Origin: an uncultured Erysipelotrichaceae bacterium
Lineage (GTDB): Bacteria > Bacillota_I > Bacilli_A > RFN20 > CAG-826
Assembly: GCA_902802905.1 (NCBI GenBank)
Contig: CADCNT010000002.1
Location: 79,879 to 143,878, forward strand
Direction of reading: 5' to 3'
DNA: 64,000 bases
The notes under the pieces are model-generated. The model saw only the letters and a program-made list of their open reading frames with translations. It made no database searches and was not told the origin of the DNA. A program made the translations under genes and the position numbers. This document shows positions 4,495 to 44,172 of the stretch, one piece after another. The number at the start of each line of letters is the position of its first letter. Position 1 is the stretch's first letter.

Positions 4495-5136
4495 TTACAT
4501 TGAGATTATTAATATTGGCACAATAGCCGCAATTGATAAGGGATAAAGCATCCATTCTGAGAACGCTAGCAAGATGAATCTTTTTCGTTCAACTTCACCT
4601 TGTTCGTTCTTTTTGTTTTTAAGATCAAATAGCTTCGGATTAAGTAAATTAATAAGTACGATGAGCGCTAAAGAAAAGGCCACTATCATCGCAATTAATT
4701 GATTAGTGTCTAAGTATAATCGATATAAAGTAACACAGTAATATCCTTCCATTGCTAGAAGAATAAATAAAGCAAGCATGCCTCCTAAAGAAAGATAGAA
4801 ATGCTCTCTTAATTTATTTAAAGGAATAAAAGGAATTGTGCATAAACAAAACGCCATGATCACAGAAATAATCATGATGGTCATTGAGAAAGTATGCACA
4901 TGATAGAAAAGATAATAAACATAAGGAGTAATAGATATTAAAACTCCAAATATTAATAAATAATTAAGATAAGCGTTCTTCTCTTTAAAAGAAGGGCTAA
5001 CTTCAAAAATAAAAGTATTAAAGATTCTTAGATTCTTCTTCTCAATAGATTTATAAATAATAGAAAGCGCTAAAAAGAAGAATCCTTCAAATAAAATAGA
5101 TATCACTAAAGCAACAAAAAATAATTTGCTATTCAT
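4495..5136 (-). CDS. Hypothetical polytopic membrane protein
   Basis: ORF track 4495..5184. ATG 5136 is preferred because it lies 1 nt after the rpe stop. About 6 hydrophobic segments. No family recognised. Confidence 0.55.
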   Translation of the reverse strand: MNSKLFFVALVISILFEGFFFLALSIIYKSIEKKNLRIFNTFIFEVSPSFKEKNAYLNYLLIFGVLISITPYVYYLFYHVHTFSMTIMIISVIMAFCLCTIPFIPLNKLREHFYLSLGGMLALFILLAMEGYYCVTLYRLYLDTNQLIAMIVAFSLALIVLINLLNPKLFDLKNKKNEQGEVERKRFILLAFSEWMLYPLSIAAIVPILIISM

Positions 5137-5137
5137 C

Positions 5138-5800
5138 TTAAGCTTTGAGCTTTTCAATTCTTTCTTTGATGTCATCATGACCAAAGATATAAGATCCAGC
5201 CACTAAAACATCGACACCAGCAAGCTTAGCCACTTGCGCGGTTTCATCATTGATTCCACCATCAATTTCGATTAAGACTTTATCAATCTTATTGGTTTCC
5301 ATATAGTTTTTTAAACGGATGATTTTTGAACAAGATTCAGGCATGAATTTTTGTCCGCCAAATCCTGGTTCAACAGACATCACTAAAATCATATCCACTG
5401 AATATAAGAATGGATAAACCTTTTCAATTGGGGTGTTAGGCTTAACGGATAAGCCAGCTTTCGCACCACATTCATGGATTAAATCAATAACTTTAAACAC
5501 TTCAGAATCACTCTTGCATGCTTCGTAATGGAAGGTTAAATAATCTGCTCCGGCTTTAATGAACTCAGGAGCGTACTTATATGGGTCAGAAATCATGATG
5601 TGGACATCATTTATTAGCTTATGAGTATGAGCAATACTTTTTAGAACTGGTTGGCCAAAAGAAATATTTGGCACAAAATGTCCATCCATCACATCAAAAT
5701 GTAGCCACTCTGCTCCACCATCTTCAATCTTTTTAATATCTTCTCCTAAGTGTGAAAAATCAGCGCTTAAGATACTTGGAGCCACGATAATCTTTCTCAT
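5138..5800 (-). CDS. rpe: Ribulose-phosphate 3-epimerase
   Basis: 220 aa. APSILSADFSHLGEDI, FDVMDGHFVPN and EPGFGGQKF are Rpe signatures. Conserved position downstream of rsgA. Confidence 0.9.
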   Translation of the reverse strand: MRKIIVAPSILSADFSHLGEDIKKIEDGGAEWLHFDVMDGHFVPNISFGQPVLKSIAHTHKLINDVHIMISDPYKYAPEFIKAGADYLTFHYEACKSDSEVFKVIDLIHECGAKAGLSVKPNTPIEKVYPFLYSVDMILVMSVEPGFGGQKFMPESCSKIIRLKNYMETNKIDKVLIEIDGGINDETAQVAKLAGVDVLVAGSYIFGHDDIKERIEKLKA

Positions 5801-33792: not shown

Positions 33793-35298
33793 TTATATAA
33801 TAACTCTCGCTGAAATGCACCTTGAGTTCGCTTTAGACAAAAATCCATACTTCGATTTAAGTGGTTCTTCATTAGAACCTTTTATTTTATAAATAATCTC
33901 GATTTTATCTTTATAGATAATTATCTTCTCAACGAATAAATCAATCATTCGTTTTAGGACATCTCTATCCTTGGTTTTAAGTGTCTCTCGGAAATACTTG
34001 AATGCATCCTTTAGTAGTTGTTTGTCTACTGGTTTGTTATCTTGTACTTCACAAGTGGCAAGTTCCATCTCGAGTCTAGAGATATCACCACTAATGGAGA
34101 TGTTTCTTTCATAATAGACATCCTTATCCAACTTTCCATCAAGATAGATATCCAATAGTCTATCTTTTTTATTTTTCAGTTTTCGAATCTCTTTTTCAAG
34201 TGATTCTCGTTTTGTCGGTTCTCCGCCACTTTTTTGTTTGTTTAGGTGAATTATCCATTCATCGACCATTTTGTCGGAAAAAAGGTCATTTGTAATTGAA
34301 AGAAAGATAATCTCTTCTAATCGGTCACGATTGATTGTGGATGGTTTCATATCACAAATGCCATGAGTGTGACCAGTACAACGGTATGCAAGGTAAACAC
34401 TATCTTTGTATGTGACTGAATGACCAGTATAGTGAGAACCACATTCACCACACCAAAGAACTCCAGTCAGTAAGAAGTCATTTTCCTTATGTCTCCTAAA
34501 GATTCTTTTCTTGGATTCGAGTTTGGAGTTGGCACTAATCCAGACATCATAAGAAACAATTGGATCACAAACATTATCGACAATAATTGGTTCATCACTC
34601 TTGGATGCATAAGTGTATGTTCCATAGTAGATTGTGTTACGAATAATCTTTTTAAGAGAGATGATTTCTAGGTTGGCACTTCGAGTTCCTTTAACTCCAC
34701 GATTCTTCAAGTCGGTACAAATAGCAGTTAAGGTATCTCCTTGGATGACACGAGAAAAAATCTCTTGGATAATTGGTGATTCATCTTGGTTAATAATAAA
34801 CTTGCCTTCTTCGTTGATGTCATATCCTAAAGGTCGAGTAGAACAAGACAAACCTTTTCTTGCTCGTGCATGTAAACCTTTTTTAGTTTCTCTTGATAAA
34901 TTAGATGAATAATACTCCGCCATACCTTCTAGAACTGATTCAAGGATGATGGTTTCTGGAGTGTCATCAAGTTTTTCCAAGACTGATATTACCTTGACTC
35001 CATTATCTTTAAGTATCTTCTTATAAAAGGCAAAGTCATATCTATTACGAGAGAATCTATCTAACTTATGAATAATGATAAAGTCGAATTGATGTTTTTC
35101 CGAATCTTTAATCATTCGTTGAAAGTTTTTTCTTTCATCAGTGGTTGCACTCTTGGCTTCATCGATGTATTCACCGACAAGTTCAAAATTCTCTTTGTTA
35201 CAAAATTCTTTGATGGCAAAGAGTTGTGCTTCTATCGAATATCCATCTCGTTGGTTTTCGGAAGAGAATCGGCAATAGGCAACTGCTCTCTTAATCAT
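33793..35298 (-). CDS. Large serine recombinase (phage integrase)
   Basis: 501 aa. N-terminal resolvase domain AVAYCRFSSENQRDGYSIEAQ, recombinase domain, zinc ribbon CGECGSHY...RCTGHTHGIC, then a coiled coil. Confidence 0.9.
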   Translation of the reverse strand: MIKRAVAYCRFSSENQRDGYSIEAQLFAIKEFCNKENFELVGEYIDEAKSATTDERKNFQRMIKDSEKHQFDFIIIHKLDRFSRNRYDFAFYKKILKDNGVKVISVLEKLDDTPETIILESVLEGMAEYYSSNLSRETKKGLHARARKGLSCSTRPLGYDINEEGKFIINQDESPIIQEIFSRVIQGDTLTAICTDLKNRGVKGTRSANLEIISLKKIIRNTIYYGTYTYASKSDEPIIVDNVCDPIVSYDVWISANSKLESKKRIFRRHKENDFLLTGVLWCGECGSHYTGHSVTYKDSVYLAYRCTGHTHGICDMKPSTINRDRLEEIIFLSITNDLFSDKMVDEWIIHLNKQKSGGEPTKRESLEKEIRKLKNKKDRLLDIYLDGKLDKDVYYERNISISGDISRLEMELATCEVQDNKPVDKQLLKDAFKYFRETLKTKDRDVLKRMIDLFVEKIIIYKDKIEIIYKIKGSNEEPLKSKYGFLSKANSRCISARVII

Positions 35299-35689: not shown

Positions 35690-36084
35690 TGTTTCGTTTC
35701 CTTATCTAAATTATTTATTATTAGAACTACTTTCATTAGATTGTCATCATCAAGATTTAATAATCCGAGTATGGCATTATAAAGCATTTGTTCTCTCTTA
35801 TCGAAATTTCCACTTTGCAATTTTTGAATCATATCAACTGCATTAGAATCACATAATGCTCTTATCGATTCTTCAAATCCACCATGTATGGCAATTAAAT
35901 CTTCTCCAAGAATTTCGTTTGGGTAACAATGAAAAAAGTTTGCCAAGATAATTGCAACTCGATAAGTCATCTTTGCAGTGCCAAGTTCGAGTTGAGCAAT
36001 CAACGAACGAGATATTTTTGTTTTATTAGCTAGTTCTCTCTGGGATAATCCAGAACGAGTTCTAATTTCCTTCAAATTATTCAT
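35686..36084 (-). CDS. XRE-family HTH repressor, paralogue B (CI-like position)
   Basis: MNNLKEIRTRSGLSQRELANKTKISRSLIAQLE. ATG 36084 with an AAAGGAAAA RBS (track start 36156 rejected). ATGA overlap with paralogue A. Confidence 0.75.
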   Translation of the reverse strand: MNNLKEIRTRSGLSQRELANKTKISRSLIAQLELGTAKMTYRVAIILANFFHCYPNEILGEDLIAIHGGFEESIRALCDSNAVDMIQKLQSGNFDKREQMLYNAILGLLNLDDDNLMKVVLIINNLDKETKQ

Positions 36085-36110
36085 AATTTCCGATTTTCCT
36101 TTGCACAAAT

Positions 36111-36176
36111 ATAATAACAACTTGGTTAATTTTTTGCAACAAAGTGGTTGACACATTTTATTATCTTTGGTTTAAT
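36111..36176. promoter_or_regulatory. Divergent back-to-back promoters of the lysis/lysogeny switch
   Basis: Leftward: TTGCAA (36139-36134), 17 nt, TATTAT (36116-36111). Rightward: TTGACA (36148-36153), 17 nt, TTTAAT (36171-36176). Confidence 0.5.
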
Positions 36177-36219
36177 ATAATCGAGTTGTACAAAAATTCA
36201 ACCAAAAGGAGACTCTAGT

Positions 36220-36657
36220 ATGAAGAACTGGAAATGGAAAAAAGACTATGGTGATGGTCAAGAAACTGATGATTCAGTCTTATGGATCGATGGCAAACCG
36301 ACCAATAACTATGTATCTGGGTATGGATATTACACTGCCTATATTGATGGTGTAGAATTCGGATATATCTTTGATACCTTAAAAGAAGCCAAACAAGAAG
36401 TCGAAGAACAACTCGACTTACACGAGTTCGATTTCAAGGTTGGTGACAAAGTCAATGCAACATTCCATATATATGGAAGTCATAAAGTCATAGGTGTTGT
36501 AACCGAAGTTTCCAAGAACGAACATGGGTTAGATGGCACTTGGGTTTCTATCAAAGTTACTGATGGAGATAGAAAAGATAAGTCTATTGACTTAATGTTT
36601 CAATATGGAAATTTGAATATTATGTGTCCAATAAGAGATGTGAAACCTTGTATCTAA
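36220..36657 (+). CDS. Hypothetical early protein (first rightward gene)
   Basis: 145-aa ORF with an AAAGGAG RBS. No family recognised. Confidence 0.55.
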   Translation: MKNWKWKKDYGDGQETDDSVLWIDGKPTNNYVSGYGYYTAYIDGVEFGYIFDTLKEAKQEVEEQLDLHEFDFKVGDKVNATFHIYGSHKVIGVVTEVSKNEHGLDGTWVSIKVTDGDRKDKSIDLMFQYGNLNIMCPIRDVKPCI

Positions 36658-36692
36658 AGATACAAATTCATATCTTTTAGTTATATTCTAGT

Positions 36693-36711
36693 AAATAACT
36701 AGTAGTTATTT
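36693..36711. promoter_or_regulatory. Perfect 19-bp palindrome AAATAACTA-G-TAGTTATTT upstream of the cro-like gene (candidate operator)
   Basis: 9-bp arms that are exact reverse complements, 24 nt upstream of ATG 36735. Confidence 0.4.
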
Positions 36712-36734
36712 GGCAAATGAAGAAAGGAGAGTTT

Positions 36735-36953
36735 ATGGGTAAGAACGAGAAGAAATTGGCAAAGATTGACTCTAACAAAGTTCGTGCCGCCTTACTTGAA
36801 AAACACATGACAAGAGAAGATTTGGCAAAACATCTTGGAATCCACAAAGTCACTTTAGATAGAAAGTTATGTGGTGCAAGAAATTGGCAACTTGATGAAG
36901 TTTTAACAATGGTCAAATTATTCGATAAACCTCTTGAATTTTTTTTGGAGTAA
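36735..36953 (+). CDS. Small HTH DNA-binding protein (Cro/XRE-like)
   Basis: 72 aa. MTREDLAKHLGIHKVTLDRKL helix-turn-helix. GAAAGGAG RBS. Confidence 0.65.
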   Translation: MGKNEKKLAKIDSNKVRAALLEKHMTREDLAKHLGIHKVTLDRKLCGARNWQLDEVLTMVKLFDKPLEFFLE

Positions 36954-37002
36954 GTGGTTAAAATTTCAACCAAGTTATTATTAAAGAAAAGGAGACAATT
37001 CT

Positions 37003-37284
37003 ATGTCGGAAAATCAAATCTTTGAACTCACAAGCAGAGAGTTCGAAACAATGGTTCGTGAATATCAACTGAAGTTTGTTAGTCACGATAAAAAATGGGG
37101 TGGTTGTTTCATTTACTGCAATGAGTACAACACTCGTAAAGTTCTTGGTATTTCAGTCAAGGTCACTCAATGGATTGCCATCGATGACACTCAAGGAAAC
37201 TTCACTATGAGAGTTTTCAAGAAAAGAAGAGATGCAGTCAATTGGTTGATTAAGAATGCCAATGGCAAAACATGTAGGTACTAA
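37003..37284 (+). CDS. Hypothetical phage protein
   Basis: 93-aa ORF with an AAAGGAGA RBS. Confidence 0.55.
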   Translation: MSENQIFELTSREFETMVREYQLKFVSHDKKWGGCFIYCNEYNTRKVLGISVKVTQWIAIDDTQGNFTMRVFKKRRDAVNWLIKNANGKTCRY

Positions 37285-37348
37285 AAATGACTCCTACAAA
37301 CCTCCAAATTCAATTCGTTAGTCAAATACTCGATGACTATACGAAAAA

Positions 37349-37367
37349 CCTACCACGAACGAAAGGA
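37349..37367 (+). repeat. 19-nt element CCTACCACGAACGAAAGGA, copy 1 (5' UTR of the gene starting at 37378)
   Basis: Identical to 39323-39341. It ends 10 nt before the ATG and contains the likely SD. Confidence 0.8.
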
Positions 37368-37377
37368 ACAACGAAAG

Positions 37378-37917
37378 ATGGGAAAAAAGTTAGAACGAAA
37401 TGCAGTGGGTTTAACCACTCGACAAGCAAGAACTCACGATTTAATAGTCAAGAATAGTGAGTTAGGGAGAAAAACTCCAATTGATGAAATCATCGATAAT
37501 TATCCATACGATGCCGAAACTCGTAGAGATGGATATATCAAAAACACAAGTGCCAGAACACACCATCCTTGTATTCAAGTCTATGAAGATATTGATGCAT
37601 TAAATATGAATCTAGGAATCCATAAAGTGCATCTATGGGATAAAGAATACAACTTCTGGATTTCTCACGATATAGAGGAAGTTAAGGCATTTTGTAAACC
37701 ACTTTATGAGAGACAAGGCAAGAAGAAACTTTGGAAACAAGGAATCCTAATGTTAAAAGCAAGGAGACATGGACAAATGAGATTAAAGTTTGAATCCGAA
37801 TCCGAAGCTAGAGAGTATTGGGAGACATTCATTGATTCCATTAAGGGTGAATTAGTCGATGAACTTATAAAGGAAGGAGAATCGGAAGATGGCAAAGAGA
37901 AGGATGTTCTCAACTGA
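37378..37917 (+). CDS. Hypothetical phage protein
   Basis: ORF track 37333..37917. ATG 37378 is preferred because the shared 19-nt RBS-containing element precedes it. Confidence 0.5.
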   Translation: MGKKLERNAVGLTTRQARTHDLIVKNSELGRKTPIDEIIDNYPYDAETRRDGYIKNTSARTHHPCIQVYEDIDALNMNLGIHKVHLWDKEYNFWISHDIEEVKAFCKPLYERQGKKKLWKQGILMLKARRHGQMRLKFESESEAREYWETFIDSIKGELVDELIKEGESEDGKEKDVLN

Positions 37918-38782
37918 AATAGTTAGAAGTGATGCATTCTTGGACTTACCAGTTAGTAGTAGAGAATTATATTTCCAACTTGGAATGGACACTGATGATA
38001 GAGGATATATTCCAAATGCCAAATCAATCATTCGTGTCATAGGTGCAAACATAGGTGATTTAGAACCACTTATCAATAAAGGATTCTTGATGTTAAGAGG
38101 TGAAACACTGATGTTACAAAAACACTTTAGGATCAATAACACAATTAGGTCGGATAGATTCAAAGAAACTGAATACATCGATGACTTAAAGAAGTTATTT
38201 ATCAAAAGTAACGGTGTCTACACTGATGACTCAACCAAGGGAAAACCTACTCCATTGGTGCTTGGTATACCAAGTGGATACCAAATGGATACCAATGGGT
38301 TACCCCAATTAAATATAAGTAAAGATAATTTAATTAAAGATAATTCAAGTAAAGAAATAGATATAACTAGATATAACGAGATAAAAGCAAATGGATTTGC
38401 CGGAGAGTTGTTCTTGAAATTAGTCGATTCTGGTTATGTCTCGTTATATGAACTCGACACTAACGATTATATAAAGTTCCTTAAAGAACTATTAAGTCAA
38501 TATGAAGTAGTCGATATCAAGATTAAAGTCGAATACTTCTTGAGAGTAACTTGTCACTATCTACCAATCGGTAAAGACAAACAAGACAAACCTATATTCG
38601 GTTATAGGTACAAAGAAGAGAATCAAATTGGTAATAAGTTTCTTTACTTCAAAACCACTATTACTAATGCATTCAATCCTAAAGAGTATCTAACTGAACA
38701 AGAGCAGCTAGAACTCCAAAAGATAATGGATGAACTTGGTCAAGAAGATACTGACACCGATGATGACTCACTTCCATTCTAA
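37889..38782 (+). CDS. Phage replisome organizer / replication initiator
   Basis: The N-terminus MAKRRMFSTEIVRSDAFLDLPVSSRELYFQLGMDTDDRGYI is typical of the replisome-organizer N-terminal domain. Acidic C-terminus. Confidence 0.7.
   Translation: MAKRRMFSTEIVRSDAFLDLPVSSRELYFQLGMDTDDRGYIPNAKSIIRVIGANIGDLEPLINKGFLMLRGETLMLQKHFRINNTIRSDRFKETEYIDDLKKLFIKSNGVYTDDSTKGKPTPLVLGIPSGYQMDTNGLPQLNISKDNLIKDNSSKEIDITRYNEIKANGFAGELFLKLVDSGYVSLYELDTNDYIKFLKELLSQYEVVDIKIKVEYFLRVTCHYLPIGKDKQDKPIFGYRYKEENQIGNKFLYFKTTITNAFNPKEYLTEQEQLELQKIMDELGQEDTDTDDDSLPF
38320..38377. repeat. AT-rich direct-repeat cluster inside the replisome-organizer gene (candidate phage ori)
   Basis: TAAAGATAATT at 38320 and 38335. Perfect tandem TAGATATAAC x2 at 38358-38377. 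Confidence 0.4.
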
Positions 38783-38784
38783 TT

Positions 38785-39318
38785 ATGGGTAGAAGAAGGA
38801 AGAAAAGAAGAACTCTTCGGACAACTGAAGAGATACCAAAGGAAATAGCAACACCTCCACATAGACTCACATTTGAAACTGACTCAAAGCTAATTAAAGT
38901 CACTGCCAACATTAGAGATTGCTTAAGAACTAGAAGTATTAGGTCTTGTCTCAAATGTTGTAGGTGGCACGAGTGTAAGACTAGATTGGAGGGGATTAAG
39001 GTGGATGAGATTATCTTGAAAGTATCTTGGCAAGATTTTAAGAAGATTGAACGAGATGAAATTCGAGAGATTAGATCACTCACCAATCTAGCTACATTTC
39101 CACTACTGATATACCTCTATGTAGAACCTCCTTATTACGAAAGAGATAAGAAAGGTGAAATCAAAGGTGTCATCGAAGTAGTCAAAGATAAAACAACGAA
39201 TCAATGGAAGATAGACATGTTCTGGTATCCATTGATATCAGTGATTCCATACTTCATGAGATATGCCGCCAAGGATTGGACTTGGAGTTGGATATCACGA
39301 GAAAACAACAAAAAATAA
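38785..39318 (+). CDS. Hypothetical phage protein (basic N-terminus, Cys-rich segment)
   Basis: This is the only open frame here. 177 aa. CLRTRSIRSCLKCCRWHEC. Confidence 0.4.
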   Translation: MGRRRKKRRTLRTTEEIPKEIATPPHRLTFETDSKLIKVTANIRDCLRTRSIRSCLKCCRWHECKTRLEGIKVDEIILKVSWQDFKKIERDEIREIRSLTNLATFPLLIYLYVEPPYYERDKKGEIKGVIEVVKDKTTNQWKIDMFWYPLISVIPYFMRYAAKDWTWSWISRENNKK

Positions 39319-39322
39319 AGTT

Positions 39323-39341
39323 CCTACCACGAACGAAAGGA
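39323..39341 (+). repeat. 19-nt element CCTACCACGAACGAAAGGA, copy 2 (5' UTR of the C5-MTase gene)
   Basis: Identical to 37349-37367. It ends 6 nt before ATG 39348. Confidence 0.8.
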
Positions 39342-39347
39342 GAATTT

Positions 39348-40763
39348 ATGAGAGATGATGATTTTTGTCAGTTAAACCTCTTTAATTCGTTTAGAGATTA
39401 TAAGAAGTTTGATTCTAACAAGAAATTATTGGTGGTTGAATTCTTCTCCGGGATTGGTGCTACTGCACAAGGATTAAAGAATCTCGGAATCAAATTCACT
39501 CATCATCGAACATGTGAATGGTGTTCAGTAAGTATCAAAGCATACAACATGATTCACATGAAAGACACTACTGATTACTCCAAAGATTTGACCAAGGATC
39601 AACTAATTGCATACCTTGATGGGAATATCTCAACTGATTGGAACACATTATGCAATGTCAAAAAGCAAAATGAGAAATGGTTGAGAGAGACATATAACAA
39701 TTGCATTGCCACTCATAACATGATGAATATCTCGAATGTTCATGGAGAAGATTTGGGAATTCCTTATTCCGATGATTATGAAACATTTTGTTCTTACTCA
39801 TTTCCATGCCAAGACTTGTCTCTTGCTGGAAAGATGAAAGGAATGGAAGAAGGTTCTGGAACACGAAGTTCACTACTCTTTGAGTTCTTACGAATATTAA
39901 GAGAAATAGATGAACTCTATAAACAAGGTAAAAGTGGAAGAATCACTTATCTCTTGATGGAGAATGTACCAGAAGTCATTGGTTCAAAAAATGTGAAGCA
40001 ATTCGTTAAGTTTGAAGAAGAACTAACGAAACTCGGATATACAAATTTTGGTGGAATCTTGAATGGCAAGAATTACTGCATACCACAAAACCGTAGGAGA
40101 TTCTTCTTATTCTCGATTCTTGGTGATTATTCATATGACTTTCCTAAAAGAAGAGAACTGAAATATCACCTTAAGGACTTTTTAGAAGATGAAGTTGATG
40201 AAAAATACTACTTGTCACAAAGAATGATTAACTTCTTCATGTCCAACACCGAGAAACAAGCCGAGAGCGGCAATGGGATTAAAAGCAAATCCATTGCCGC
40301 TACTGATGAAGGTTCGATTGCTCGAACCATTACCACTAAAGCTGGTAGTCGAATGGATGATAACTTCATTATCTACGAAGATGAAGAAGATGACTCCGAA
40401 GAAGTGACAACTCATCAAGACTTAAAAGAAACTCTTGAGGGGGGGGTTATTGAAGAAGGAGACTTTGTCGACACATACAATCGAACGATTAAGAAAGATG
40501 GATGCAGTGGCACTATCACAACTAGGATCAGTGAATGCAATCATCAATATGTAGTTGTGAAAGGCAAAACTATCAAAATCAAGAATGCCACAAAAAAAGG
40601 GTATATCGAAGCTGAAGTCGGTGATGCAATCGATATCTCTGGAAGAATGCAATATCACCGAGGAACGGTTCAAAAAGGAATCAGCCAAACAATCACTACA
40701 ATGGGCGGAGATAATGTTGCAGTGGTTGTAGAAGATAAAGGAGACAACGATGAAGAAAAATGA
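39348..40763 (+). CDS. DNA (cytosine-5) methyltransferase, large ORF: motifs I-VIII plus three TRD-like units
   Basis: FFSGIGA (I), SFPCQDLS (IV), MENV (VI), QNRRRFF (VIII). Then ARTITTK, SGTITTR and SQTITTMGG units. The start is set at 39348, not 39204. Confidence 0.85.
   Translation: MRDDDFCQLNLFNSFRDYKKFDSNKKLLVVEFFSGIGATAQGLKNLGIKFTHHRTCEWCSVSIKAYNMIHMKDTTDYSKDLTKDQLIAYLDGNISTDWNTLCNVKKQNEKWLRETYNNCIATHNMMNISNVHGEDLGIPYSDDYETFCSYSFPCQDLSLAGKMKGMEEGSGTRSSLLFEFLRILREIDELYKQGKSGRITYLLMENVPEVIGSKNVKQFVKFEEELTKLGYTNFGGILNGKNYCIPQNRRRFFLFSILGDYSYDFPKRRELKYHLKDFLEDEVDEKYYLSQRMINFFMSNTEKQAESGNGIKSKSIAATDEGSIARTITTKAGSRMDDNFIIYEDEEDDSEEVTTHQDLKETLEGGVIEEGDFVDTYNRTIKKDGCSGTITTRISECNHQYVVVKGKTIKIKNATKKGYIEAEVGDAIDISGRMQYHRGTVQKGISQTITTMGGDNVAVVVEDKGDNDEEK
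40439..40446 (+). repeat. G8 homopolymer inside the C5-MTase large ORF (in frame, encodes part of EGGV)
   Basis: gaGGGGGGGGtt, read directly. This is the longest G run seen in the window. Confidence 0.95.
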
Positions 40764-41151
40764 GTATGTTGGAGTGTTCGACATTAAAGAATCCGATACA
40801 TTTCGACCAACACTTGAATCAAGAATCCATTTAGACTCACCAGTCTCCAAGACATTAACTTGTCGAGAGGATAGCTGCGGTGTCATCGAGAGAGAGAGAG
40901 AGAGTAGACTCCGAATCCGAAAACTCACTCCGAGAGAATGTTTCCGCCTTATGGGTTTCGATGATGACTCATTTAATTCTCTTGAAGGTCAATTCTCAAA
41001 CAACAATCTCTATCATCTTGCCGGAGACTCAATCATCAGTGTTGTTATCTCATACATATGTCTAGGTCTTATGGAAGATGAAAAAGAAGCTGAAAGCAAA
41101 ATTCAAAAATATGTCGATACATTAAAGGAGGACAAAGATGGAAACAAATAA
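40750..41151 (+). CDS. DNA (cytosine-5) methyltransferase, small ORF: fourth TRD-like unit plus motifs IX-X
   Basis: SKTLTCRED, RKLTPRECFRLMGFDD (IX), AGDSI (X). It has its own AAAGGAG RBS 7 nt upstream and overlaps the large ORF by 14 nt. Confidence 0.8.
   Translation: MKKNEYVGVFDIKESDTFRPTLESRIHLDSPVSKTLTCREDSCGVIERERESRLRIRKLTPRECFRLMGFDDDSFNSLEGQFSNNNLYHLAGDSIISVVISYICLGLMEDEKEAESKIQKYVDTLKEDKDGNK
40888..40904 (+). repeat. (GA)8 tract inside the C5-MTase small ORF (in frame, encodes ERERE)
   Basis: GAGAGAGAGAGAGAGAG, read directly. It lies about 15 nt upstream of motif IX. Confidence 0.95.
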
Positions 41152-41876
41152 GATTTACTTCGGTGATGCATATGAACTCATTAAGGAAATCCCGGATAAA
41201 TCAATCGACTTAATTTATACTGATCCACCTTATGACTTCCATAGTGGAACTGCAGTATCTGGTGGAATCTTCAAAGATAGAGAATGCAAACCATATCAAG
41301 ATGTGGTTGATGCCAAATTAAATGCTGGAATAGACAACTCAATCTTGGATGAATTTGTAAGAATACTAAAGCATATATATATATATATGGTGCAACAAGT
41401 CTCAAATTCCGTTCTATCTAAATTACTTCTTGTCTTATCCAAATATAAGTTTCGAGATTCTAACATGGCACAAGAAAAATCCATCACCAATTACAAAAAA
41501 CACATTCTTACCAGATACCGAATACTGCCTTATGTTTCGAGAAAAGGGTGTGTGCCTATTAAATGATGGATATGAATTAAAACATAAGTATTACATCTCA
41601 AGTACCAACAAAGATGACAAAGATGATTACTTGCATCCGACAATCAAACCAATTGAATTTGTCGAAAAGCACATTGCTCATTCTACTCAAGTCGGTGATA
41701 TCGTATTTGATCCATTCTTGGGTAGTGGCACTACTGCACTTGCAGCTAAACATCTTGGAAGAAAATATATCGGATTTGAAATCAATGAGACTTATTACAA
41801 AATCGCGGTTGACCGTTTACAAGGAATCAATCAAAAAGGAGAGATGAATCTCTTCGACATAATGGGAGATGAATGA
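41138..41876 (+). pseudogene. Beta-class DPPY (N6-adenine-type) DNA methyltransferase, frame-shifted at an (AT)8 tract (phase-OFF allele)
   Basis: Frame 1 carries IYTDPPYDF up to the tract. From the tract on, the +1 frame reads IYIWCNKSQ...ILTWHKKNP...HPTIKP...FDPFLGSGTTALAA. (AT)9 would give one 246-aa ORF. Confidence 0.85.
41373..41388 (+). repeat. (AT)8 tract at the frameshift point of the DPPY methyltransferase
   Basis: gcATATATATATATATATgg, read directly. Confidence 0.95.
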
Positions 41877-42040
41877 TGGCAAAGAAATATCTAGAGTTCA
41901 CTGATATAGAACTCATCCAAGAAATTCATAGAATTGAACATTTACTTACAACTAATAAGAAACCACTAACACATAGGCAAAATAAAATCTACTTACAAAA
42001 GCTGCATAACGAATGGGGAAGGAGAAAAAATGGCAAATAG
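41876..42040 (+). CDS. Small hypothetical ORF (54 aa), below the ORF-track cutoff
   Basis: My translation: MAKKYLEFTDIELIQEIHRIEHLL...WGRRKNGK. ATGA-type overlap with the MTase stop. Confidence 0.3.
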   Translation: MAKKYLEFTDIELIQEIHRIEHLLTTNKKPLTHRQNKIYLQKLHNEWGRRKNGK

Positions 42041-42260
42041 ACAACAATTACTCGGAAGAGTCATCGATGGATATTGGGAAATCGTTAAAGCAATTAAGAC
42101 TGGAAATTCCCGAAACTACAATTACATTCTCCGAAACCAATATAACGGAACTGAAGTTCAAGTTGGTGGTACAACGGTTAGATCAATCATTAAAGGAGAA
42201 ACTAGTGTCTCCAAAATCGTATCAAGAAGAATCAAAAAAGGAGAAAGAAGAAATGGATAA
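42030..42260 (+). CDS. Hypothetical small phage protein
   Basis: 76 aa with a GGAGAAAAAA RBS before the ATG. Confidence 0.45.
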   Translation: MANRQQLLGRVIDGYWEIVKAIKTGNSRNYNYILRNQYNGTEVQVGGTTVRSIIKGETSVSKIVSRRIKKGERRNG

Positions 42261-43156
42261 TGAATTACTACTCTTCGATAGATTAGAAATCATTAAAACC
42301 ACTATCAATAAATATGGAATAGATAATTTCTACTTATCGTTCTCTGGTGGTAAAGATTCCACTATTCTCCATCACTTGATAGATATGGCACTTCCGGGAA
42401 ATAGAATTCCAAGAGTGTTTGTAAACACTGGAATCGAATACAACATGATTGTTCAGTTTGTTAAGGATATGGCAGCTAAAGATGACCGATTCGTAATCAT
42501 TGCACCAAGTAAACCAATTAAAAAGGTGTTAGAAGAATTCGGTTATCCGTTCAAATCCAAAGAACACTCACTACGAGTTTACCAATTCAACAAAGGTCAA
42601 AACTCGAATTACATCAAGAAATACATATCTGGTTATGACCATAATGGCAAAGAATCGACATTTGTATGTCCAAAGATTCTCAAGTATCAGTTTGAGGAAA
42701 GAGGTAAATACAACTACTCAAATCTATGTTGCCAAAAACTGAAGAAAGAACCAGTTCATAAATGGGAGAAGGAAAACCATAAGTCCATTGCGATGACTGG
42801 TATGAGAGCGGAGGAAGGTGGCAATCGAGCAAGACTCGGATGCATCATCACCGACTCTAAAGGAAGATTGAAGAGATTCCATCCACTCATCAAAGTCGAT
42901 GAACAATGGGAAGATTGGTTATTAGAGAGAGAGAGAGAGAATAGCACTCGCACCACTCTATTGCCAACCATTCAACTTCAAAAGGACCGGATGTAAAGGA
43001 TGCCCGTTCAGTCTTGAACTCCAAGAACAACTTGACATCATGCAAATCTATCTCCCGGCTGAACGAAAACAATGTGAATTCATTTGGGAGTATGTCTACA
43101 AGGAATATCGAAGAATCGGATATCGATTGAAAGACAAAATCACTATTTGGGATTAA
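42253..43156 (+). pseudogene. PAPS/APS-reductase-like PP-loop protein (DndC-like fold), frame-shifted at a (GA)8 tract (phase-OFF allele)
   Basis: SFSGGKDS PP-loop and LCCQKLKKEPV in frame 0. After the tract the +1 frame reads IALAPLYCQPFNFKRTGCKGCPF... through to a stop at 43154-43156. The start is set at ATG 42253 (AAAGGAGAAAG RBS). Confidence 0.8.
42924..42940 (+). repeat. (AG)8A / (GA)8 tract at the frameshift point of the PAPS-reductase-like gene
   Basis: ttAGAGAGAGAGAGAGAGAat, read directly. Confidence 0.95.
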
Positions 43157-43170
43157 GGAGACTCAAAAAA

Positions 43171-43578
43171 ATGAAATATCTAAAGGTTCTCACACCGTTA
43201 GAATCAGTCAAAATCTTAAATCATAAAATGGATCAAATCGATTTCTTCTATGAATTGACTGATAAAGATGAAATCTATTTGTTGGTCAGTAACGATGAAA
43301 GATTCGTTCTAGACTATGACTACGATGGAAGTTGGTTTGTCTGGGATAAAAAGGCACACCACTATCCATTCAAAGATATTGAAATGAACAATGGCAAAAT
43401 CGTTGCACACTGCAAAGCTGCCAAAGTTGAAAAGAAAATAATCGGTTCAATCAATTATTACCGAACAAAAATAAAAGACTTAATTGTCTATGACTCTCCA
43501 AAAGATGATGTTGGAGAAATCTTCAAGAAAGATGTTGCACCACAATTCGTGGAAGAAGGAGAAAACGATGGAAGATAG
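43171..43578 (+). CDS. Hypothetical phage protein
   Basis: ATG 43171 preceded by AAGGAG. 135 aa. Confidence 0.5.
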   Translation: MKYLKVLTPLESVKILNHKMDQIDFFYELTDKDEIYLLVSNDERFVLDYDYDGSWFVWDKKAHHYPFKDIEMNNGKIVAHCKAAKVEKKIIGSINYYRTKIKDLIVYDSPKDDVGEIFKKDVAPQFVEEGENDGR

Positions 43579-43891
43579 AATCGAATCAGTTATCAAGAAA
43601 GTCTTATCAATCGAAGATAAGGTTTCCATCAGTGAAGTTGCCACTATGATTCTAGGATCAATTGAGTTATTAAACGATAATTCAGTTTCATTCAAAGAAG
43701 TTAAAGCGGCAATGCCAAGTCAATATAACGGTATTATCAACTCTCTATGTAATACATTCATAGTCAACTGCTTATCACTAGCTGGTGCAAGTAAGGAAGA
43801 GTTGATTCAAGCTGCAAAAGACTTGAAATCAGTAAGAATCGGTATTTCCGAACTCCATATCCGAAAGAAAACCGATAAATATGATGCATAG
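43568..43891 (+). CDS. Hypothetical phage protein
   Basis: ATG 43568 preceded by GAAGGAG. 107 aa. Confidence 0.5.
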   Translation: MEDRIESVIKKVLSIEDKVSISEVATMILGSIELLNDNSVSFKEVKAAMPSQYNGIINSLCNTFIVNCLSLAGASKEELIQAAKDLKSVRIGISELHIRKKTDKYDA

Positions 43892-43908
43892 GAAAGGAGG
43901 AATTGCCG

Positions 43909-44172
43909 ATGAGAATAAAACTGCATCCAGAGATTGTTCTATCAATCGATGATATTCCAATCATCACCAAGTCTATTAGAGATAGGAAAATCCTCTTAAA
44001 GACTTTAGCTGAAGAACTCGGATGGTCAAAGTCAAAACTCTATTATGTGATTCGTGGCAAAGGAAATGCCAAAAAACTCTTGGATCACTTAAAAGAGAAA
44101 TATCAAATCATAGTGCCACTTACATATGAAGGTGACATATCAGTGGTCGATTCAAACATTCTCACCTATTAA
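43909..44172 (+). CDS. Hypothetical small protein, possible HTH
   Basis: AGGAGG sits 8 nt before ATG 43909. LKTLAEELGWSKSKLYYVIRGKG looks like a helix-turn-helix. Confidence 0.45.
   Translation: MRIKLHPEIVLSIDDIPIITKSIRDRKILLKTLAEELGWSKSKLYYVIRGKGNAKKLLDHLKEKYQIIVPLTYEGDISVVDSNILTY

What the first reader, a model, noticed from the sequence alone, without database searches (positions are those of the whole stretch)
39990..40900. C5-methyltransferase variable region contains four tandem TRD-like units: possibly a multispecific phage MTase
Seen: between motif VIII (QNRRRFF) and motif IX there are about 270 residues. They contain four similarly built units: GSIARTITTKAGSRMDDNFII, DGCSGTITTRISECNHQYVVV, KGISQTITTMGGDNVAVVV and SPVSKTLTCREDSCGVIE. 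Each is a T-[IL]-T-[TC] core followed by 8-11 residues and a hydrophobic strand. Established: monospecific C5-MTases have one target-recognition domain with a conserved T-L/I-type dipeptide. Bacillus phage enzymes (SPR, phi3T, rho11s, H2, SPbeta group) carry several TRDs in tandem and methylate several unrelated sites. Inference: this enzyme may protect against several host R-M systems.
Basis: partly seen in the sequence, partly recalled or inferred. Interest (0 to 1): 0.6.

Follow-up and report, generated by a model that had tools for sequence, protein, structure and literature searches.

The report
Split four-module phage cytosine methyltransferase
A prophage gene pair encodes a DNA cytosine methyltransferase whose DNA-reading part is built from four different, interchangeable modules, so it probably marks several different DNA sequences at once and shields the phage from several bacterial restriction enzymes.

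Summary
The four T-[IL]-T-[TC] units are real: 4 observed against 0.02 expected, spaced 58-62 residues. They are not in one reading frame. Units 1-3 end the large ORF (39348-40763, motifs I-VIII). Unit 4 begins a small ORF in the +1 frame (40750-41151, motifs IX-X) that has its own Shine-Dalgarno and ATG.

Comparison with about 330 relatives shows that each unit is a separate cassette, here called A, B, C and G. The pool holds at least 11 such module types, combined 1 to 8 per enzyme. Two other types in the pool, E and F, match stretches of the SPR and SPbeta/phi3T variable regions. Block B-C-G is 89-97% identical in DNA to a relative whose catalytic core is only 70-85% identical.

So the multi-TRD reading is supported by sequence architecture. 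The number of active specificities is untested, and two AlphaFold runs left the variable region at low confidence.

The split after module C recurs in 34 of 120 top relatives, as in the two-subunit enzyme M.AquI. G8 and (GA)8 tracts vary among relatives. Unit 1 carries a 14-bp inversion that destroys a conserved motif.

Earlier notes of this scan on this same window had already flagged the split and the repeats. None concerned other DNA.

The parts
39348..40763 (+). Large-subunit ORF (471 aa): C5-MTase motifs I-VIII followed by TRD modules A, B and C. It ends ...VAVVVEDKGDNDEEK-TGA. The Shine-Dalgarno AAAGGAG lies just upstream of the ATG.
   Evidence: ORF list and sequence. PF00145 E 8e-36 over profile positions 24-234. 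Best solved relative is M.MpeI 4dkj, E 2e-26. Motif positions.
40245..40379 (+). TRD module A (unit 1, core TITT 40326-40337). This is a 'first-slot' module type.
   Evidence: jackhmmer envelope aa 300-344, E 7.5e-23; 87 occurrences in 242 relatives. It is the sole module of the two-subunit relative L025.
40267..40300 (.). Perfect 10-bp inverted repeat (GCGGCAATGG / CCATTGCCGC) flanking a 14-bp loop. Here the loop is inverted relative to the family consensus, turning GNGFAFNPIAAT into GNGIKSKSIAAT inside module A.
   Evidence: the window, L003, L004 and L005 carry one orientation; L001, L006, L007 and L008 carry the other. P0001 and P0002 also have the consensus. Both orientations keep the frame.
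40439..40446 (+). G8 tract (codes EGGV) in the linker between modules A and B.
   Evidence: The tails of relatives P0005 and P0003 equal the G7 and G9 readings of this site.
40422..40565 (+). TRD module B (unit 2, core TITT 40512-40523).
   Evidence: Envelope aa 359-406, E 2.6e-26; 72 occurrences. Profile similarity to modules D (95%), J (82%) and E (76%).
40572..40736 (+). TRD module C (unit 3, core TITT 40689-40700). It is the last module of the large subunit.
   Evidence: Envelope aa 409-463, E 1.6e-30; 112 occurrences. 34 of the 120 top relatives end a few residues after this module.
40737..40763 (+). Subunit junction: Shine-Dalgarno AAAGGAG (40737-40743), ATG of the small ORF (40750) and TGA of the large ORF (40761-40763), with a 14-nt overlap.
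   Evidence: Sequence. The same layout with different letters occurs in L001, L002 and L095.
40750..41151 (+). Small-subunit ORF (133 aa): TRD module G (unit 4), an ERERE linker and motifs IX and X.
   Evidence: PF00145 E 5e-7 over profile positions 270-318. 583 stand-alone relatives of 73-233 aa.
40759..40890 (+). TRD module G (unit 4, core TLTC 40852-40863), in the canonical TRD position next to motif IX.
   Evidence: Envelope aa 4-47, E 3.9e-30; 69 occurrences. It is fused in frame behind module C in 17 relatives with ABCG architecture.
40888..40904 (+). (GA)8G tract, in frame here (IERERES), 13 nt before motif IX.
   Evidence: Tract is 17 nt in the window and L001, 13 nt in L004-L008, 15 nt in L002 and 19 nt in L003. 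L004 is 99.6% identical to the window apart from this. Frameshifted products are P0154-P0156.

Best explanation
The locus encodes a prophage-borne orphan DNA (cytosine-5) methyltransferase of the multi-TRD ('multispecific') kind, made as two polypeptides.

The large subunit carries the catalytic motifs I-VIII (an M.MpeI-like core) followed by three different target-recognition modules, A, B and C. The small subunit is started from its own Shine-Dalgarno and ATG, which overlap the end of the first ORF. It carries a fourth module, G, and motifs IX-X.

Inferred mechanism: the two chains assemble as in M.AquI. Each module in turn presents its own recognition loops (the T-I/L-T core and the stretch before it) to the one catalytic pocket. 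The enzyme would therefore methylate up to four unrelated short sequences and protect phage DNA from several restriction systems.

Shown here:
- the module architecture and its independence;
- the conserved split;
- exchange of the B-C-G cassette between diverged cores;
- the prophage setting.

Inferred, not shown:
- assembly of the two chains;
- activity of each module;
- the number and identity of target sites.

Expression is at the mercy of two slippery tracts, G8 between A and B and (GA)8 before motif IX. Module A may be crippled in this copy by a 14-bp inversion.
For: - Four cores against 0.02 expected, with regular 58-62-residue spacing.
- Each unit is a separate profile family: A, B, C and G occur 87, 72, 112 and 69 times in 242 proteins. 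Architectures range from one module to eight (for example AFBCDGEH), and order varies. The same holds in 80 species-representative genomes.
- In relative L025, module A is the only module detected between motifs VIII and IX. For J (L075) the variable region is short enough that it may be the only module. The 'D-only' and 'J-only' rows were not checked for modules outside my eleven seeds.
- Pool members F and E match SPbeta/phi3T residues 291-331 (E 3e-18) and SPR 254-293 / rho11s 352-389 (E 1e-9). B, C and G link to these by profile similarity: B-E 76%, B-D 95%, C-D 90%, D-G 69%.
- Window versus L001: DNA identity is 89-97% over 40448-40947 (B, C, G) but 70-85% over the core and 68-69% over IX-X. 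dS is 0.10-0.42 in the modules against 1.35 in the core, and dN/dS is about 0.09-0.11 for B, C and G (small counts).
- The split is conserved. 34 of 120 top hits stop just after C with unrelated short tails. A small ORF follows in every lineage looked at. Shine-Dalgarno plus ATG is present in the window, L001 and L095. 583 stand-alone small-subunit relatives exist.
- Two-subunit C5-MTases and fragment complementation in the variable region are documented (PMC3404938).
- Core fold: the AF2 model matches M.MpeI with TM 0.81.
- Prophage context: integrase, repressor, terminase, portal and tape measure. This is the only PF00145 gene in the 1.54-Mb genome.
Against: - No methylation data exist for this enzyme or for any member of this family that I could find.
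- The window's own modules match the Bacillus-phage enzymes only at the short core (E 0.003-0.3 in a six-sequence search). Modules C and G have no match among solved structures.
- Pairwise profile similarity among A, B, C and G is weak: 55%, 37%, 33%, 31%, 5% and 1%.
- Two AF2 models leave residues 295-519 at pLDDT 20-75, so a TRD fold is not shown for any unit.
- B, C and G were never seen as the only module of an enzyme.
- Inactive 'pseudo-TRDs' are known in rho11s and H2 (from memory: Lange et al. 1991).
- Module A has lost its conserved FAFNP here.
- Many near-identical copies are out of frame at (GA)n.
Confidence: 0.65

Rival explanations
1. The enzyme is multi-module in sequence but effectively mono- or bispecific. 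Only the module next to motif IX (G), and perhaps one more, is active. The others are pseudo-TRDs or spacers carried along by cassette exchange.
For: B, C and G were not found as sole modules. Module A's conserved motif is destroyed by the inversion in this copy. AF2 gives no confident fold for A, C or G. Pseudo-TRDs are known in rho11s and H2 (from memory).
Against: B and C show 1-2 non-synonymous against 3-6 synonymous changes versus L001, with dN/dS about 0.09. Their key residues are nearly invariant across 86 relatives of 43-84% identity. Fused relatives in which C directly abuts motif IX are common (ABC-[IX-X]).
Confidence: 0.2
2. The two ORFs are read as one polypeptide by programmed ribosomal frameshifting at GAA-GAA-AAA-TGA (a -2 or +1 slip on the A run). 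The enzyme would then be a single 600-residue chain.
For: An A5 run lies directly before the TGA stop, and the frames overlap. Fused ABCG relatives exist. L002 also has A5 before TGA.
Against: L001 has only CAAAATGA, on which a -2 re-pairing is not possible, yet it keeps the same split. A strong Shine-Dalgarno at canonical spacing from an ATG is kept in the window, L001 and L095. Other relatives have non-overlapping small ORFs with their own Shine-Dalgarno (L025, L094).
Confidence: 0.08
3. The gene is a decaying pseudogene of a fused MTase. The frame change at 40750-40763 is a disabling mutation or an assembly error.
For: Deleting one base would fuse the frames. Neighbouring genes also carry frame breaks.
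Against: The same break point recurs in 34 diverged protein clusters with different tail sequences. It is present in nine independent assemblies. The downstream ORF has a Shine-Dalgarno and ATG. Both ORFs show purifying selection.
Confidence: 0.05
4. The region is one large TRD in which the T-I-T-T motif recurs by chance or by internal duplication, without functional independence.
For: Only the short core is shared among the four units.
Against: Modules occur separately, in other orders and with other partners. A cassette boundary is visible in DNA identity. The chance expectation is 0.02 cores.
Confidence: 0.02

Closest known systems
Multispecific C5-MTases of Bacillus phages SPR, phi3T, rho11s, SPbeta and H2 (M.SPRI group; Trautner laboratory)
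   Same: Both are phage-borne orphan enzymes with an enlarged region between motifs VIII and IX made of tandem 40-60-residue units, each with a T-L/I-T-T core (their sequences). Both have the shared VDEKYYLS lead-in. Module types E and F of this family match stretches of their variable regions.
   Different: Overall identity is only 21.6% (E 9e-10). The catalytic core is closer to M.MpeI. The window's four modules are of other types with unknown targets. The enzyme is encoded as two ORFs. It carries G8 and (GA)8 tracts. The pool of module types is much larger, with up to 8 modules per enzyme.
M.AquI (alpha/beta) and M.EcoHK31I, the two-subunit C5-MTases
   Same: As in M.AquI, the large subunit holds motifs I-VIII plus part of the variable region, and the small subunit holds the rest of the variable region plus motifs IX-X (PMC3404938). 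The overlapping ORFs are from memory of Karreman & de Waard 1990. Relative L025 has a small subunit of motifs IX-X only.
   Different: Those enzymes are monospecific components of cellular R-M systems. Here the split lies between complete TRD modules of a phage enzyme and recurs across a large family.
M.MpeI / M.SssI (CpG MTases of Mollicutes)
   Same: This is the best sequence and fold match for the catalytic core (E 2e-26; TM 0.81), including the long insert between motifs I and IV.
   Different: Those enzymes have a single TRD, a single chain and CG specificity. The variable region does not align.
M.(phi)BssHII (Sethmann et al. 1999)
   Same: It is a prophage-derived multispecific C5-MTase outside the SPbeta group.
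   Different: Its TRDs lie at separated places in the enzyme (known to me only from the title cited; the paper is not held). Here they are all between motifs VIII and IX.
Phase-variable DNA methyltransferases (phasevarions) and phage contingency loci
   Same: Simple-sequence tracts inside the MTase ORF differ in length among near-identical copies and set the frame.
   Different: The known cases are mostly Type III mod or Type I hsd genes of pathogens. Here the tracts sit between the TRD cassettes of a phage C5-MTase.

Membership tests
C5 DNA methyltransferase (PF00145) | Conserved motifs I (FxGxG), IV (PCQ), VI (ENV), VIII (QxRxR), IX (RxLTPRE) and X (GNS/GDS) in canonical order | tested here: met
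   FSGIG, SFPCQ, ENV and QNRRR are in ORF1; RKLTPREC and GDSI are in ORF2. PF00145 hits both ORFs on complementary parts of the profile. The fold matches M.MpeI and M.HhaI.
Multispecific (multi-TRD) C5-MTase, Trautner type | Enlarged variable region between motifs VIII and IX holding two or more non-overlapping TRD-sized units, each with a T-L/I core | tested here: met
   There are four units of about 45-55 residues, with cores 58-62 residues apart.
Multispecific (multi-TRD) C5-MTase, Trautner type | TRDs are independent modules: removing or swapping one changes one specificity only | tested here: inconclusive
   The natural-variation analogue is met: modules are present or absent independently, and the cassette has been exchanged. 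The effect on specificity cannot be tested with these tools.
Multispecific (multi-TRD) C5-MTase, Trautner type | Methylation of several unrelated target sequences by one enzyme | not testable with these tools
   This needs expression and 5mC mapping. No data were found in the literature held.
Multispecific (multi-TRD) C5-MTase, Trautner type | Sequence relatedness of the TRDs to those of the SPR/phi3T/rho11s/H2 enzymes | tested here: not met
   Modules A, B, C and G match only at the core (E 0.003-0.3). The sister modules E and F of the family do match (E 1e-9 to 3e-18), but they are absent from the window.
Two-subunit C5-MTase (M.AquI type) | Two ORFs split within the variable region: I-VIII in the first and IX-X in the second, with its own translation start | tested here: met
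   There is a 14-nt overlap, and AAAGGAG lies 6 nt before the ATG at 40750. The layout is conserved in L001, L002 and L095, and in 34 of 120 relatives.
Two-subunit C5-MTase (M.AquI type) | Both polypeptides are made and both are required for activity | not testable with these tools
   This needs co-expression against single-ORF expression.
TRD fold (small domain of M.HhaI / M.HaeIII) | Each unit folds as a TRD-like beta-rich subdomain | tested here: inconclusive
   Two AF2 runs were made, with 108 and 86 rows. The core has pLDDT above 90. Module A is about 30, B 55-68, C 45-75 and G 21-27. Profiles of C and G find no solved TRD.

The most novel reading that the evidence does not exclude
The split architecture and the slippery tracts may together form a switch of the specificity repertoire, not just an on/off switch.

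A slip at the G8 tract between modules A and B truncates the large subunit to [I-VIII]-A. Natural two-subunit enzymes of exactly that form exist (L025). The small subunit G-[IX-X] has its own start and could still be made. The phage population would then alternate between an enzyme reading four module types and one reading two.

Across the family, poly-G tracts are 12-fold enriched inside these genes and sit mostly between TRD cassettes. Gut Firmicutes phages may therefore carry a general, previously undescribed system of hypermutable, cassette-shuffled multispecific methyltransferases.
Probability: 0.15. Interest if true: 0.85.

Novelty: new variant of a known kind. Interest (0 to 1): 0.6.

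Why it matters
Multispecific cytosine methyltransferases have been a textbook curiosity of a handful of Bacillus phages since the 1980s, and no structure shows how one catalytic core serves several TRDs.

This locus belongs to a large family. At least 569 loci were confirmed in species-representative genomes, and the 80 listed are almost all gut bacteria, mainly Clostridia, Bacilli and Erysipelotrichales. In this family TRD cassettes are shuffled on a large scale, the enzyme is often split into two chains, and hypermutable tracts sit between cassettes.

If the modules are active, the family would help explain how temperate gut phages cross restriction barriers. It would offer a natural library of portable 5mC specificities. 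It would also give a tractable system for asking how TRDs dock on a shared core.

Tried and rejected
- **Structure.** I made two AF2 models of the conceptually fused protein, using the code AACG=N at 40746 only as a modelling device. One used a mixed alignment and one a collinear ABC alignment. The variable region stayed at low confidence, so nothing can be said about TRD folds. Foldseek only re-found the core.
- **Solved structures.** Profiles of modules C and G found no methyltransferase TRD. I did not run A and B.
- **Phage collection.** Megablast of 36000-44000 found no match.
- **Genome contigs.** The search with the single protein found nothing. Alignment A1 was too variable to search with. 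Alignment A2 worked.
- **Papers.** The Trautner 1996, Wilke 1988 and Sethmann 1999 papers are not held. TRD-to-target assignments for the SPR group rest on my memory and on which phages share which module.
- **Recurrent inversion switch.** I considered that the 14-bp inversion flips back and forth. The orientation follows the sequence clades (97.5% identity or more against 95.4%), so a single event suffices, and I rejected the idea.
- **Alternative code.** I considered TGA=Trp read-through at the ORF1 stop. The frame stops again 8 codons later, so I rejected it.
- **Local MAFFT with small subunits included.** This misaligned module C, so I dropped those rows.
Full report
**1. What is in the sequence**

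The region lies in a prophage. A serine integrase (33793-35298, minus strand) and a repressor sit upstream, followed by a DnaD-like loader. Downstream are terminase, portal, major head and tape-measure genes.

The methyltransferase is not one ORF.
- ORF1 runs from 39348 to 40763 (471 aa from the ATG behind AAAGGAG).
- ORF1 stops at TGA 40761-40763.
- ORF2 runs from 40750 to 41151 (133 aa) in the +1 frame. Its ATG lies 6 nt after AAAGGAG (40737-40743). It holds the fourth unit, an ERERE linker, motif IX (RKLTPREC) and motif X (GDSI).
- Pfam PF00145 hits ORF1 on profile positions 24-234 and ORF2 on 270-318.
- The best solved relative of the core is the CpG methyltransferase M.MpeI.
- This is the only PF00145 gene in the 1.54-Mb host genome.

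**2. The observation**

All four quoted peptides are present. The pattern T-[IL]-T-[TC] occurs four times in the 276 residues between motifs VIII and IX (joined conceptually). Shuffles give a mean of 0.021, and none of 200,000 shuffles reached three. The cores are 62, 59 and 58 residues apart.

**3. Are the units separate TRDs or one large domain?**

I collected relatives in three searches and cut the variable regions into module families by iterative profile search.

The window's units fall into four different families, which I call A, B, C and G. I seeded eleven families (A-K), and unassigned stretches show several more types. Each has a T-[LIV]-x-T-like core.

The modules behave as independent cassettes.
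- Enzymes carry from one to eight of them, for example AB, ABC, ABCD, ABCG, ABDECH and AFBCDGEH. I checked J-only directly in L075. The D-only and J-only rows may hide module types I did not seed.
- Order and neighbours vary.
- The same picture holds in 80 species-representative genomes. At least 569 loci were confirmed, and the 80 listed are almost all gut bacteria, mainly Clostridia, Bacilli and Erysipelotrichales.
- Seventeen relatives have exactly the window's ABCG order in a single frame, one of them an annotated Intestinibacter sp. protein.
- A relative from an Erysipelotrichaceae genome (L025) has A as its only detected module, so A-type modules appear to suffice as a TRD.

Profile-profile comparison shows that the window's four modules resemble each other only weakly and mainly at the core: A-B 55%, B-G 37%, B-C 33%, A-G 31%, A-C 5% and C-G 1% probability. 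They are linked through other pool members: B-D 95%, C-D 90%, D-G 69%, B-J 82% and B-E 76%. This is what one expects of TRDs for different targets, not of a recent tandem duplication.

**4. Link to the classical multispecific enzymes**

I fetched the SPR, SPbeta, phi3T, rho11s and H2 enzymes. Their variable regions show the same tandem T-L-T-T units.
- Module family F matches SPbeta/phi3T residues 291-331 (E 3e-18).
- Module family E matches SPR 254-293 and rho11s 352-389 (E about 1e-9).

By my memory of the Trautner work, and by which phages share these stretches, they are experimentally mapped TRDs. The papers themselves are not held.

E and F are not in the window. A, B, C and G match the Bacillus enzymes only at the core (E 0.003-0.3). 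The family therefore shares its building principle and part of its module pool with the known multispecific enzymes. The window's own modules are of types whose targets are unknown. Overall identity to rho11s is 21.6%.

**5. Cassette exchange and constraint**

I compared the window with L001, a related prophage, at the DNA level.

| Region | Window coordinates | DNA identity |
|---|---|---|
| Catalytic core | 39348-40247 | 70-85% |
| Modules B, C, G and start of motif IX | 40448-40947 | 89-97% |
| Rest of IX-X | 40948-41147 | 68-69% |

Synonymous divergence is 1.35 in the core against 0.10-0.42 in the modules. dN/dS for B, C and G is about 0.09-0.11, on few substitutions. The TRD block has thus moved between diverged backbones and is under purifying selection.

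**6. The split**

- Thirty-four of the 120 best relatives of ORF1 end a few residues after module C, with unrelated hydrophilic tails.
- 583 stand-alone proteins resemble ORF2.
- In every lineage whose DNA I read, a small ORF with motifs IX-X follows: the window, L001, L002, L094, L095 and L096. In the window, L001 and L095 it follows with the same overlapping layout and a Shine-Dalgarno.
- L025 has a non-overlapping 58-residue small subunit of motifs IX-X only.

This argues against an error or a pseudogene. It also argues against programmed frameshifting, because L001 lacks the A5 run yet keeps the split.

Two-subunit C5-MTases (M.AquI, M.EcoHK31I) and complementation of fragments cut in the variable region are established (PMC3404938).

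**7. Structure**

I modelled the conceptually fused protein twice. The catalytic core is confident and superposes on M.MpeI (TM 0.81). Residues 295-519 remain at pLDDT 20-75 even with 86 collinear rows. Profiles of C and G find no solved TRD. The case rests on comparative sequence evidence.

**8. Features that bear on function**

(a) *The (GA)8G tract at 40888-40904.* It is in frame here. It is 13 nt in five other assemblies, one of them 99.6% identical to the window. It is 15 and 19 nt in two others, and 23 nt in in-frame relatives. Frameshifted products are on record.

(b) *The G8 tract at 40439-40446, between A and B.* It is constant in nine close copies. The tails of relatives P0005 and P0003 are exactly the G7 and G9 readings.

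(c) *Poly-G/C runs across the 80 genome loci*.
- Runs of 7 or more occur at 0.47 per kb inside these genes against 0.04 per kb in the flanks.
- 31 of the 80 loci carry at least one.
- 53 of the 59 runs lie in the variable region, and 43 of those lie between modules.
- 30 of the 48 frame changes between modules coincide with a run.

(d) *A 14-bp loop at 40277-40290,* between perfect 10-bp inverted repeats. It is inverted relative to the family consensus and changes GNGFAFNPIAAT to GNGIKSKSIAAT inside module A. The orientation follows the sequence clades, so one event suffices. Module A may be impaired in this copy.

**9. Verdict**

This is a multi-TRD phage C5-methyltransferase with four different recognition modules.

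It differs from the classical enzymes in four ways:
- it is split into two translationally linked subunits;
- it draws on a much larger pool of modules;
- it has an M.MpeI-like core;
- it carries hypermutable tracts.

How many of the four modules are active, and on which sequences, needs an expression and 5mC-mapping experiment.

Earlier notes of this scan on the same window had already listed the split ORF and the simple-sequence tracts. I reached them independently before reading those notes, and I add:
- the module analysis;
- the cassette exchange;
- the G7 and G9 relatives;
- the family-wide poly-G enrichment;
- the inversion.

Noticed in passing
window 40267-40300: A 14-bp segment between perfect 10-bp inverted repeats is inverted relative to L001, L006-L008 and the family consensus. 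The frame is kept, but FAFNP becomes IKSKS in module A. The same orientation occurs in L003, L004 and L005, which are the closest copies.
   Followed up: yes
window 40439-40446; proteins P0003 and P0005: The G8 tract between modules A and B is constant in nine close copies. However, the C-terminal tails of relatives P0005 and P0003 equal the G7 and G9 readings of this site.
   Followed up: yes
L014-L093 (80 genome loci of the family): Poly-G runs of 7-12 are about 12-fold enriched inside these methyltransferase genes (0.47 against 0.04 per kb). Nearly all are on the coding strand, most lie between TRD modules, and 30 of 48 frame changes coincide with one.
   Followed up: partly
window 40448-40947 against L001: The DNA of modules B, C and G is 89-97% identical to L001, while the catalytic core and motifs IX-X are 68-85% identical. 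The TRD block is a recently exchanged cassette.
   Followed up: yes
L002 4600-5200: An HNH endonuclease ORF (4663-5154) is inserted in the motif IX region of a related methyltransferase. The NLRIRKLTP segment is duplicated on both sides. This may be an intron or a homing element.
   Followed up: no
L094 2722-2860: Between the large and small subunit ORFs of a relative lies an orphan module B with no start codon. It is put out of frame by a G9 tract, and could be a silent cassette or a remnant.
   Followed up: no
L025 3203-3540: This two-subunit relative has module A as its only TRD. Its 58-residue small subunit holds motifs IX-X only and has its own TAGGAG Shine-Dalgarno.
   Followed up: partly
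window 41138-41876: The adjacent DPPY N6/N4 methyltransferase is broken into two ORFs at a (TA)n tract near 41373-41392. Close copies carry two more units and are also out of frame. This was already noted by the scan.
   Followed up: partly
whole genome G000: The host genome is small (1.54 Mb, about 35% GC, 95.6% complete). It has no C5-methyltransferase gene other than this prophage one.
   Followed up: partly
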